From Escherichia coli (lineage in GTDB: Bacteria; Pseudomonadota; Gammaproteobacteria; Enterobacterales; Enterobacteriaceae), in NCBI RefSeq assembly GCF_045037415.1, contig NZ_CP173438.1: 64,000 nucleotides of DNA, one strand, 5' to 3'. The position numbers were made by a program. Below are positions 54,001-57,000 of the stretch, one piece after another (the first letter of the stretch is position 1; every line of letters begins with the position of its first letter).

Positions 54001-57000
54001 TAACGCTTCCGTTTTGCGGCGTGGTTTCTCCAGATAGTAGACATCCTGTTTCAGGCGCGTCTCTTGTAAACCTTCGCCGGAGGAGGGGGAGGTCGTCGCG
54101 GCAATGTTGTCGTAGATCTGCCAGGTCACGTAACGCCAGGTATCGACGCGCTTTTGGATTGCGTGGGTAATGTCGACAATCTGGTAACTTTTATCTTTCA
54201 GCCAGGCGTTAACGGCGCTTTGTACCATTACACCCATCGTCACCAGTAACACAATGATCAACAGTAAAAAGAAGCGGGTAATGCTCCCCGGTAGGAGTGA
54301 AAAGCGGGTCGTGGCCGTTGTCTCTTTCTGACGCATTCGTGTTTATGACCTGTTAAAACTTCGCGAAGTGATAGGGCAGTATAAAGGGTACAGTGTGAAA
54401 TTCCAGACTCTTACCTGATTGATGATTCTCTATTCTCCAGTGATATTTATCATCCGGCATTGGGGGAAATAGATGTACAAGCGCCATTTTGCTGTACAAA
54501 TAACCTACAAAAAGCCCAACGAAATTAATTGCAAATAAACGAAGATTGCTGGAAATTATGCTGATGTTAATTATTTGTGAAATAGTTAACAAGCGTTATA
54601 GTTTTTCTGTGGTAGCACAGAATAATGAAAAGTGTGTAAAGAAGGGTAAAAAAAACCGGATGCGAGGCATCCGGTTGAAATAGGGGTAAACAGACATTCA
54701 GAAATGAATGACGGTAATAAATAAAGTTAATGATGATAGCGGGAGATATTCTAGTTGCGAGTGAAGGTTTTGTTTTGACATTCAGTGCTGTCAAATACTT
54801 AAGAATAAGTTATTGATTTTAACCTTGAATTAATATTGCTTGATGTTAGGTGCTTATTTTGCCATTCCGCAATAATCTTAAAAAGTTCCCTTGTATTTAC
54901 ATTTTGAAACATCTATAGCGATAAATGAAACATCTTAAAAGTTTTAGTATCATATTCGTGTTGGATTATTCTGCATTTTTGGGGAGAATGGACTTGCCGA
55001 CTGATTAATGAGGGTTAATCAGTATGCAGTGGCATAAAAAAGCAAATAAAGGCATATAACAGAGGGTTAATAACATGAAAGTTAAAGTACTGTCCCTCCT
55101 GGTCCCAGCTCTGCTGGTAGCAGGCGCAGCAAACGCTGCTGAAGTTTACAACAAAGACGGCAACAAATTAGATCTGTACGGTAAAGTAGACGGCCTGCAC
55201 TATTTCTCTGACAACAAGTCAGAAGACGGCGACCAGACCTACATGCGTCTTGGCTTCAAAGGTGAAACTCAGGTTACTGACCAGCTGACCGGTTACGGCC
55301 AGTGGGAATATCAGATCCAGGGCAACAGCGCTGAAAACGAAAACAACTCCTGGACCCGTGTGGCATTCGCAGGTCTGAAATTCCAGGATGTGGGTTCTTT
55401 CGACTACGGTCGTAACTACGGCGTTGTTTATGACGTAACTTCCTGGACCGACGTACTGCCAGAATTCGGTGGCGACACTTACGGTTCTGACAACTTCATG
55501 CAGCAGCGTGGTAACGGCTTCGCGACCTATCGTAACACCGACTTCTTCGGTCTGGTTGACGGCCTGAACTTTGCTGTTCAGTACCAGGGTAAAAACGGTA
55601 GCGTAGATGGCGAAGGCATGACCAACAACGGTCGTGGTGCCCTGCGTCAGAACGGCGACGGCGTTGGCGGATCTATCACTTATGATTACGAAGGCTTCGG
55701 TATCGGTGCTGCTGTTTCTAGCTCCAAACGTACTGATGATCAGAACTTCGGCCTGAACGGTTATGGTGAGCGTTATTTGGGTAACGGCGACCGTGCTGAA
55801 ACCTACACTGGTGGTCTGAAATACGACGCTAACAACATCTACCTGGCTGCTCAGTATACCCAGACCTACAACGCAACTCGCGTAGGTTCCTTGGGTTGGG
55901 CAAACAAAGCACAGAACTTCGAAGCTGTTGCTCAGTACCAGTTCGACTTCGGTCTGCGTCCGTCTGTAGCCTACCTGCAGTCTAAAGGTAAAAACCTGGG
56001 TGTCATCAATGGTCGTAACTACGACGACGAAGATATCCTGAAATATGTTGATGTTGGTGCGACCTACTACTTCAACAAAAACATGTCCACCTACGTTGAC
56101 TACAAAATCAACCTGCTGGACGACAACCGCTTCACCCGTGACGCTGGCATCAACACTGATGACATCGTAGCTCTGGGTCTGGTTTACCAGTTCTAATCTC
56201 GATTGATATCGAACAAAGGGCCTGCGGGCCCTTTTTTCATTGTTTTCAGCGTACAAACACAGTTTTTTGGTGTACTCTTGCGACCGTTCGCATGAGGATA
56301 ATCACGTATGGAAATAAGCTTTACCCGCGTGGCACTGCTGGCTGCCGCGCTCTTCTTTGTTGGTTGCGATCAAAAACCACAACCCGCCAAAACCCACGCT
56401 ACTGAAGTTACCGTTCTTGAAGGCAAAACCATGGGTACCTTCTGGCGTGCCAGCATCCCGGGCATTGACGCCAAACGCAGTGCCGAACTTAAAGAAAAGA
56501 TTCAGACCCAGCTGGACGCTGACGATCAGCTGCTTTCGACCTATAAAAAAGATTCCGCGCTGATGCGCTTTAACGACTCGCAAAGTTTGTCGCCGTGGCC
56601 GGTAAGTGAAGCGATGGCCGATATCGTCACCACCTCGCTGCGCATTGGCGCAAGGACCGATGGTGCGATGGATATAACCATCGGGCCGCTGGTGAATCTG
56701 TGGGGCTTTGGCCCGGAACAACAACCGGTTCAAATTCCGAGCCAGGAACAGATCGATGCGATGAAAGCCAAAACCGGCTTACAGCACCTGACGGTCATTA
56801 ATCAGTCGCATCAGCAATATCTGCAAAAAGACCTGCCGGATTTATATGTCGATCTCTCCACCGTCGGCGAAGGTTATGCGGCGGATCACCTGGCACGCTT
56901 GATGGAGCAGGAAGGGATTTCCCGCTATCTGGTGTCGGTGGGCGGCGCGCTGAACAGCCGTGGTATGAACGGTGCAGGCCAACCGTGGCGGGTAGCGATT

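What the first reader, a model, noticed from the sequence alone, without database searches (positions are those of the whole stretch)
54648..56196. ompC is a loop-variant allele; micF/OmpR control region is conserved
The ORF is 373 codons and differs from the K-12 OmpC I remember (367 aa) in surface-loop segments (for example ...[24 protein letters not shown]... and ...[23 protein letters not shown]...), while the signal peptide, barrel termini, micF and the three OmpR boxes are conserved. OmpC loop variation is tied to phage and colicin receptor specificity, antibody escape and antibiotic permeability, which is relevant given the gyrA genotype.
Basis: partly seen in the sequence, partly recalled or inferred. 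Interest (0 to 1): 0.35.

Follow-up and report, generated by a model that had tools for sequence, protein, structure and literature searches.

The report
ST131-type ompC allele, already catalogued
This is the normal outer-membrane porin gene ompC in the version carried by the pandemic E. coli lineage ST131: its surface loops differ from the lab strain K-12, its pore and regulation do not, and the allele is already catalogued, so the finding is correct but ordinary.

Summary
The ORF at 55075-56196 (+) is ompC, 373 aa against 367 in K-12. Fifteen of 18 substitutions and all three indels fall in surface loops L1, L4, L5, L7 and L8. The signal peptide, L2, the constriction loop L3, L6 and both barrel ends are identical to K-12. 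micF (54648-54741, -) differs by one base in its terminator stem. OmpR boxes C1-C3 (54896-54955) and everything from there to the ATG are identical.

It is not new. The gene is 100% identical in roughly 460-530 of 5,426 complete E. coli genomes, including ST131 strains JJ1887 and SE15 (RefSeq protein WP_000865587.1). The window itself is 99.996% identical to JJ1887. Beck et al. 2016 already classify this allele as L4 c7 / L5 c3 / L7 e. It is a mosaic of loop cassettes that circulate separately in other lineages.

The suggested link to antibiotic permeability and the gyrA genotype is not supported. The pore residues are wild type. SE15 carries the identical allele with wild-type gyrA.

One useful side point: a published anti-OmpC peptide antibody targets the K-12 L7 sequence, which this allele interrupts.

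The parts
54648..54741 (-). micF small RNA gene, the antisense regulator of ompF
   Evidence: Rfam RF00033 full-length match, 116.8 bits against a gathering score of 79. One substitution relative to K-12, at 54659, in the terminator stem (G-U to G-C). The 5' pairing region is identical.
54654..54676 (-). micF intrinsic terminator stem-loop
   Evidence: Terminator scan: 10-bp stem followed by a T run.
54742..55074 (.). Divergent micF-ompC control region
   Evidence: Gapless alignment to K-12. Only four substitutions: 54746 (between the micF -10 box and +1), 54833, 54860 and 54894.
54896..54955 (+). OmpR binding sites C1 (54896-54915), C2 (54916-54935) and C3 (54936-54955)
   Evidence: All 60 bases are identical to K-12. 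The C1 sequence is confirmed by the C1 oligonucleotide printed in PMC2586830. The C2 and C3 boundaries are from my recollection of the OmpR literature.
54961..54989 (+). ompC promoter: -35 TTGGAT (54961-54966) and -10 GAGAAT (54984-54989)
   Evidence: Identical to K-12. The hexamer assignment is from established knowledge. The consensus scan does not detect this weak, OmpR-dependent promoter.
55075..56196 (+). ompC coding sequence, 373 codons plus stop; signal peptide at 55075-55137
   Evidence: ORF list. Pfam Porin_1, E = 1.7e-142. NCBIfam OmpC, 760 bits against a cut-off of 484. 100% identical to ompC of JJ1887 and SE15, protein WP_000865587.1.
55207..55227 (+). Loop L1 (SDNKSED); two substitutions relative to K-12
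55417..55494 (+). Constriction loop L3, identical to K-12
55591..55647 (+). Loop L4 ([19 protein letters not shown]): five substitutions and a 4-aa deletion; class c7 of Beck et al.
   Evidence: The exact 54-nt cassette is found in 560 genomes.
55729..55791 (+). Loop L5 ([21 protein letters not shown]): five substitutions and a 6-aa insertion; class c3 of Beck et al.
   Evidence: The 48-nt cassette is found in 900 genomes. No solved OmpC structure contains this loop.
55993..56031 (+). Loop L7 ([13 protein letters not shown]): a 4-aa VING insertion plus G to N
   Evidence: The cassette is found in 1,606 genomes, including O157:H7.
56116..56163 (+). Loop L8 (Q to R and N to D); this variant is shared with the phylogroup-D-type allele
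56215..56240 (+). ompC intrinsic terminator
   Evidence: Terminator scan. Identical to K-12.

Best explanation
This is the ordinary chromosomal ompC gene in the allele typical of the E. coli ST131 lineage, with its normal divergent micF gene and OmpR-dependent promoter. It encodes a general-diffusion porin, a trimeric 16-strand beta-barrel. The channel and the osmoregulation (EnvZ/OmpR, small RNAs) are as in K-12. The outward-facing loops L1, L4, L5, L7 and L8 carry a particular combination of cassettes that also circulate separately in other E. coli lineages. The combination most likely arose by intragenic recombination. It is most likely maintained by diversifying pressure from agents that dock on these loops: OmpC-dependent phages, CdiA toxins and antibodies. 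Shown here: gene identity, allele identity and frequency, the location of the differences, conservation of pore and regulatory elements, the mosaic pattern, and independence from the gyrA genotype. Inferred from the literature: that the loop set changes which phages, CDI systems or antibodies recognise the cell.
For: Gene identity: Pfam Porin_1 and NCBIfam OmpC above cut-off, with OmpF and PhoE models below theirs. Synteny rcsD-micF-ompC-apbE-ada as in K-12. About 95-97% identity to solved OmpC structures.

Allele identity: the gene is 100% identical in JJ1887, O25b:H4 strains and SE15. 532 of 5,430 records are >=99% identical, and the evenly spaced listing shows 100% identity down to about rank 460. 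The 4.1-kb haplotype forms a discrete block of 562 records >=99%, with the next best at 97.9%. Window 1-50000 differs from JJ1887 at 2 of 50,000 bases.

Already catalogued: SE15 and NA114 OmpC are listed as c7/c3/e in S1 Table of PMC5056734, and the L4 and L5 strings match classes c7 and c3 in S2 Table.

Differences sit in loops; L3 and the pore residues are invariant.

Mosaic pattern: L1 and L5 are shared with 13P460A and NIST0056, L4 with 09A19CPO009, L7 with O157:H7, and L8 with the phylogroup-D-type allele. Cassette counts are 900, 560 and 1,606 genomes against 532 for the whole allele.

ompC is 88.8-96.3% identical between lineages, while flanking rcsD, the intergenic region and apbE are 96-99.7%. 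In the variable loops dS is 0.33 against 0.09 elsewhere, and dN/dS is 0.51 against 0.05.
Against: Nothing contradicts the identification. The functional consequence of this loop set was not tested here, and I found no report testing it. The strains tested by Beck et al. do not include an L5 c3 allele. Sequence type was not computed for the ~530 genomes that carry the allele. The assignment to ST131 rests on named reference strains and on the single flanking haplotype.
Confidence: 0.93

Rival explanations
1. The allele is a permeability or resistance determinant that works together with the gyrA S83L/D87N genotype, by reducing drug entry through OmpC.
For: gyrA in the window does carry S83L and D87N. 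Some natural ompC alleles do lower beta-lactam susceptibility (PMC6970295).
Against: L3 and the constriction residues are identical to K-12. G137 and R195 are wild type, unlike the phylogroup-D-type allele (D and E) seen in FDAARGOS_1371. SE15 has the identical ompC region with wild-type gyrA. No pore-lumen ompC changes were found in 402 ST131 genomes.
Confidence: 0.04
2. The allele was imported by recombination recently, within the fluoroquinolone-resistant clade C of ST131, and marks that clade.
For: ompC and its surroundings are a known recombination hotspot (PMC6970295). SCU-101 shares the ST131 RcsD protein but has a CFT073-like ompC, so breakpoints do occur next to ompC.
Against: SE15 (ST131 clade A) is 100% identical to the window over 5,054 nt spanning rcsD to ada. 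The allele therefore predates the split of the ST131 clades.
Confidence: 0.02
3. The particular c7/c3/e loop combination is itself an adaptive trait that contributed to the success of ST131, by escaping common OmpC-dependent phages, CdiA toxins or host antibodies.
For: The exact combination is confined to one haplotype block of about 10% of complete genomes. L4 and L5 are the CdiA-EC536 recognition determinants, and L1, L4 and L5 are phage T4 determinants.
Against: Every E. coli lineage has some loop combination, and more than 220 alleles are known. The high frequency here reflects heavy sampling of ST131. There are no functional data.
Confidence: 0.1

Closest known systems
OmpC of E. coli ST131 (RefSeq WP_000865587.1; SE15 BAI55637.1, NA114 AEG37142.1), loop classes L4 c7 / L5 c3 / L7 e in Beck et al. 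2016 (PMC5056734)
   Same: Identical in nucleotide and protein sequence.
   Different: Nothing.
E. coli K-12 OmpC (P06996; PDB 2J1N)
   Same: Same gene, synteny, signal peptide, barrel, L2, L3, L6, pore residues, promoter, OmpR boxes and micF.
   Different: 95% protein identity and 92.3% nucleotide identity. L1, L4 (-4 aa), L5 (+6 aa), L7 (+4 aa) and L8 differ.
O157:H7-type OmpC (WP_000865552.1; sequence equals PDB 9wcb), the closest solved structure
   Same: Same L7, near-identical L4, same barrel.
   Different: 10 substitutions. It lacks the 6-aa L5 insertion (SPLYIGNGD in place of [15 protein letters not shown]). L1 and L8 differ.
Phylogroup D / ST38-type low-permeability ompC allele (PMC6970295), e.g. 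FDAARGOS_1371 WP_000865539.1
   Same: Shares the L8 variant ([13 protein letters not shown]) and the last ~110 nt of the gene.
   Different: 88.8% nucleotide identity. That allele carries G137D and R195E in the pore lumen; the window allele has G and R.

Membership tests
OmpC, general-diffusion porin (Porin_1 / GBP family) | Full-length match to the porin profile, and to the OmpC-specific model above its curated cut-off | tested here: met
   Pfam PF00267, E = 1.7e-142, positions 1-337 of 337. NCBIfam NF007841 OmpC, 760 bits against a cut-off of 484. OmpF (480 against 583) and PhoE (455 against 599) fall below their cut-offs.
OmpC, general-diffusion porin (Porin_1 / GBP family) | Sec signal peptide with an AxA cleavage site, and a C-terminal aromatic residue (the beta-signal) | tested here: met
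   Residues 1-21 ([21 protein letters not shown]) are identical to K-12. The protein ends in ...GLVYQF.
OmpC, general-diffusion porin (Porin_1 / GBP family) | Constriction zone: basic cluster K16, R37, R74, R124 facing acidic D105 and E109 on L3 (mature numbering; residue list recalled from the 2J1N paper) | tested here: met
   All six residues are invariant across the 11 aligned alleles. L3 is identical to K-12.
OmpC, general-diffusion porin (Porin_1 / GBP family) | Trimeric 16-strand beta-barrel fold | tested here: inconclusive
   The AlphaFold2 run on an 11-allele alignment failed, with mean pLDDT 29.9. The fold is inferred instead from about 95-97% sequence identity to solved OmpC structures 9wcb, 2xe1 and 2j1n.
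OmpC, general-diffusion porin (Porin_1 / GBP family) | Chromosomal context rcsD - micF - ompC - apbE - ada | tested here: met
ST131-type ompC allele (WP_000865587.1) | Sequence identity to ompC of reference ST131 genomes from different clades | tested here: met
   100% over 1,122 nt to JJ1887 and SE15. Loop strings equal Beck classes c7 and c3.
Low-permeability ompC alleles linked to carbapenemase-producing lineages | A charge change in the pore lumen: G137D, or R195 to E or L (K-12 precursor numbering) | tested here: not met
   The window has G137 and R191 (equivalent to K-12 R195). A phylogroup-D-type comparison allele has D and E.
MicF sRNA (RF00033) | Full-length covariance-model match above the gathering score, a conserved 5' ompF-pairing region, and a Rho-independent terminator | tested here: met
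   116.8 bits against 79, model positions 1-94. The only difference from K-12 is a G-U to G-C change in the terminator stem.
OmpR-activated ompC promoter | Three tandem 20-bp OmpR sites, C1-C3, upstream of the -35 box | tested here: met
   54896-54955 is identical to K-12. C1 is confirmed against the oligonucleotide in PMC2586830. OmpR binding itself cannot be tested with these tools.

The most novel reading that the evidence does not exclude
The exact L1/L4 c7/L5 c3/L7 e/L8 combination is confined to the ST131 haplotype. It could be a lineage-specific surface identity that changes susceptibility to OmpC-dependent phages, CdiA toxins or antibodies, and so could have contributed to the ecological success of ST131. 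A more modest and more testable version concerns measurement. The L7 insertion interrupts the peptide (SKGKNLGRGYDDED) used to raise the anti-OmpC antibody in a published ST131 study. The reported finding of high ompC mRNA but low OmpC protein in ST131 could therefore be partly an allele artefact.
Probability: 0.12. Interest if true: 0.45.

Novelty: already known. Interest (0 to 1): 0.1.

Why it matters
It matters little as a discovery. The allele, its loop classes and the mosaic evolution of ompC are all published.

It has two practical consequences. First, it is a convenient lineage marker: the exact allele sits in one haplotype block that includes ST131 clades A and C. Second, ompC reagents designed on K-12 can misreport on ST131. 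The peptide immunogen SKGKNLGRGYDDED used in PMC7177473 reads [18 protein letters not shown] in this allele. In that paper's Table 1, the ompC qPCR fold-changes appear to separate by allele group. This grouping uses my own assignment of those sequence types to phylogroups, not a tool result. Isolates that I take to carry the comparator's phylogroup-D/F-type allele give 1- to 11-fold. All other sequence types give 291- to 1,136,762-fold. Phage-therapy or vaccine designs that target OmpC loops in ST131 should use this sequence, not the K-12 sequence.

Tried and rejected
1. AlphaFold2 on an alignment of 11 E. coli OmpC alleles gave an unusable model (mean pLDDT 29.9, pTM 0.19), because the alignment was too shallow. 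I ran no further search on deepening it. The loop map came instead from the crystal-structure-annotated alignment in Beck et al. 2016 S1 Fig.

2. The sigma-70 consensus scan found 3 promoter-like sites against 3.5 expected by chance, and it missed the real ompC and micF promoters. It is uninformative for these activator-dependent promoters. The terminator scan did recover both real terminators.

3. I looked for the qPCR primers and northern probe of PMC7177473 to test for allele mismatch directly. They are not in the text, and no supplement is held.

4. The 345-aa antisense ORF at 55219-56256 (-) has no Pfam match. I rejected it as a gene; it is a by-product of the codon bias of ompC.

5. I considered a recent clade-C import of the allele. 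It was rejected because SE15 is 100% identical.

6. A first protein alignment (A3) used a wrong start for the mature window protein. It was redone as A4.

Full report
**What is at the coordinates.** The region 54648-56196 holds two known genes and the control region between them. The ORF at 55075-56196 (+) is 373 codons. It matches Pfam Porin_1 over the full profile (E = 1.7e-142). It scores 760 bits on the NCBIfam OmpC model, whose cut-off is 484, while the OmpF and PhoE models fall below their cut-offs. On the opposite strand, 54648-54741 is a full-length MicF match at 116.8 bits against a gathering score of 79. The neighbours are rcsD upstream and apbE, ada and alkB downstream, as in K-12. 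The reported start is the micF 3' end, and the reported end is the ompC stop codon.

**Checking the comparison with K-12.** I fetched MG1655 (NC_000913.3) instead of relying on memory.
- K-12 OmpC is 367 aa, and the two proteins are 95% identical.
- There are 18 substitutions, a 4-aa deletion (GFTS), a 6-aa insertion (LNGYGE region) and a 4-aa insertion (VING).
- I placed the differences with the crystal-structure-annotated alignment in Beck et al. 2016 (PMC5056734, S1 Fig). Fifteen substitutions and all indels fall in L1, L4, L5, L7 and L8.
- The remaining three substitutions (G216A, I218V, L296V) are conservative changes in strands b10 and b14.
- The signal peptide, L2, the constriction loop L3, L6 and both barrel termini are identical.

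**The control region.**
- The 738-nt rcsD-ompC intergenic region aligns to K-12 without gaps and has 11 substitutions.
- One substitution lies in micF (54659). It converts a G-U pair in the terminator stem to G-C, which is the Rfam consensus state.
- One substitution lies between the micF -10 box and +1 (54746).
- The three OmpR boxes (54896-54955), the -35 and -10 hexamers, the whole 5' UTR and the Shine-Dalgarno sequence are identical to K-12.
- The closest change is 54894, 2 nt upstream of the C1 core. It falls within the longer C1 oligonucleotide used in PMC2586830.
- The ompC terminator is identical.

**Which allele it is.**
- A search of 5,426 complete E. coli genomes found the 1,122-nt gene at 100% identity in many records. 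These include JJ1887, JJ2434, SaT040, ZH063 and O25b:H4 strains.
- 532 records are >=99% identical. In the evenly spaced listing, identity is 100% down to about rank 460, then drops to a frameshifted copy and then to 96%.
- RefSeq names the protein WP_000865587.1 in both JJ1887 (ST131 H30R) and SE15 (ST131 clade A).
- Window 1-50000 differs from JJ1887 at 2 of 50,000 positions, and 52075-59196 is identical.
- The 4.1-kb segment covering rcsD, ompC, apbE and ada forms a discrete block of 562 records >=99%, with the next record at 97.9%. The exact allele therefore sits on a single flanking haplotype.

**It is already catalogued.** The supplementary tables of Beck et al. list the SE15 and NA114 OmpC proteins with loop classes c7 (L4), c3 (L5) and e (L7). 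The class strings KNGSVDGEG...[12 protein letters not shown] (c7) and [21 protein letters not shown] (c3) are those of the window. The allele is therefore already known and classified.

**Mosaic structure.**
- I fetched eleven other alleles with their flanks. ompC is 88.8-96.3% identical between lineages. The flanking rcsD 3' end, the intergenic region and apbE are 96-99.7% identical.
- A sliding comparison shows a patchwork:
  - L1 and L5 are shared with 13P460A and NIST0056.
  - The L2-L3 part is shared with K-12 and EC69.
  - L4 is shared with 09A19CPO009.
  - L7 is shared with O157:H7 and NIST0056.
  - The last ~110 nt, including L8, are shared with the phylogroup-D-type allele of FDAARGOS_1371.
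- Searching each cassette separately gives 900 genomes for L5, 560 for the exact L4 and 1,606 for L7, against 532 for the whole allele.
- Against K-12, dS is 0.33 in the variable loops and 0.09 elsewhere; dN/dS is 0.51 and 0.05. This fits exchange of old, diverged cassettes better than recent point mutation.
- It reproduces published descriptions. Beck et al. report more than 220 OmpC sequences, with 33 L4, 30 L5 and 13 L7 variants in many combinations. [quoted passage not shown]

**How it most likely works.** The channel is that of K-12 OmpC. L3 is identical, and K16, R37, R74, R124, D105 and E109 are invariant across the sampled alleles. Regulation by OmpR and by the sRNAs that pair with the 5' UTR should be unchanged, because those sequences are identical. 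What differs is the outer face. The literature assigns L4 and L5 as recognition determinants for CdiA-EC536, and L1, L4 and L5 for phage T4 and relatives. This allele probably changes which of these agents can dock on the cell. That step is inference. None of the alleles tested by Beck et al. carries L5 c3.

**Permeability and gyrA.**
- gyrA in the window (28404-31031) does carry S83L and D87N.
- SE15 has a 5,054-nt ompC region identical to the window together with wild-type S83 and D87. Its gyrA region differs from the window at only 3 of 6,001 bases.
- The ompC allele therefore predates the quinolone-resistance mutations, which arose as point mutations on the same background.
- The residues where natural ompC variation was shown to reduce beta-lactam susceptibility, G137 and R195, are wild type here. 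The phylogroup-D-type allele has D and E at these positions.
- The same study found no pore-lumen ompC changes in 402 ST131 genomes.

**A useful by-product.**
- PMC7177473 reported that ST131 isolates have more ompC mRNA, a longer mRNA half-life and yet 2- to 13-fold less OmpC protein, and attributed this to MicC.
- Its antibody was raised against SKGKNLGRGYDDED. That is the K-12 (and phylogroup-D-type) L7 sequence. In the ST131 allele the stretch reads [18 protein letters not shown].
- In its Table 1, the ompC qPCR fold-changes relative to the ST68 comparator are 1- to 11-fold for ST405, ST648, ST38 and ST3856. They are 291- to 1,136,762-fold for ST131, ST10, ST167, ST205 and ST127.
- This is the pattern expected if primer efficiency depends on the allele group. 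Which STs carry which allele group is my own assignment of phylogroups, not something computed here.
- The primers are not available in the held text, so this remains an inference. ST167 and ST10 also gave lower protein signals, and I expect them to carry a K-12-like L7 epitope (also my own assignment), so the epitope cannot be the whole story.

**Verdict.** The finding is accurate but ordinary: a standard, catalogued, lineage-typical ompC allele with intact regulation and an unchanged pore. Novelty: already known. Interest: low.

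Noticed in passing
window 28404-31031 (+), codons 83 (28650-28652) and 87 (28662-28664): gyrA carries S83L and D87N ([13 protein letters not shown]). SE15, which has the same ompC allele, has wild-type S83 and D87, and its 6-kb gyrA region differs from the window at only 3 bases.
   Followed up: yes
window 55993-56031 (ompC loop L7); paper PMC7177473: A published study of OmpC levels in ST131 used an antibody raised against SKGKNLGRGYDDED. This allele interrupts that peptide ([18 protein letters not shown]). The paper's ompC qPCR fold-changes also appear to split by ompC allele group (my phylogroup assignment of the STs). 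The reported finding of high mRNA but low protein in ST131 may be partly an allele artefact.
   Followed up: partly
L006 (Esc15; equivalent to window 55839-55854) and hit H221 (NZ_CP170378.1): Genomes with the same ST131 haplotype carry inactivated copies of this allele. One has a 16-bp deletion that RefSeq annotates as a frameshift. Another has an ISEcp1-family element annotated within the ompC region, where the match is split into two pieces. Both look like porin-loss variants on this background.
   Followed up: partly
window 57437-57696 (5' end of ada): The start of ada is much more divergent between lineages (90.8-94.2% in seven of the ten comparable strains) than rcsD or apbE (96-99.7%). 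This suggests a second hypervariable or recombining segment next to ompC.
   Followed up: partly
L012 (SCU-101, NZ_CP048920.1): This strain encodes the same RcsD protein as ST131 (WP_001249136.1) but a CFT073-like ompC (92.2% identity in my alignment; BLAST gave 91.1%) and different apbE and ada alleles. That implies a recombination breakpoint between rcsD and ompC.
   Followed up: partly
window 55219-56256 (-): A 345-aa ORF runs antisense through almost all of ompC. It has no Pfam match and is most likely a by-product of ompC codon usage, not a gene.
   Followed up: partly
window 50797-50873 and 50911-50987 (+): Two tandem matches to Rfam naRNA4 (RF02564; 66.7 and 70 bits), starting at the stop codon of the 949-aa ORF at 47948-50797 (rcsC by length and synteny with JJ1887).
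   Followed up: no
window 32108 and 35900: These are the only two differences (T in the window, C in JJ1887) between window 1-50000 and JJ1887. By ORF coordinates they fall in the yfaA-like gene and the alpha-2-macroglobulin-family gene.
   Followed up: no
window 10326-11321 (-): This ORF corresponds to rpnE, annotated as an ISNCY-family transposase in JJ1887. In JJ1887 it is followed by an annotated partial hypothetical gene.
   Followed up: no
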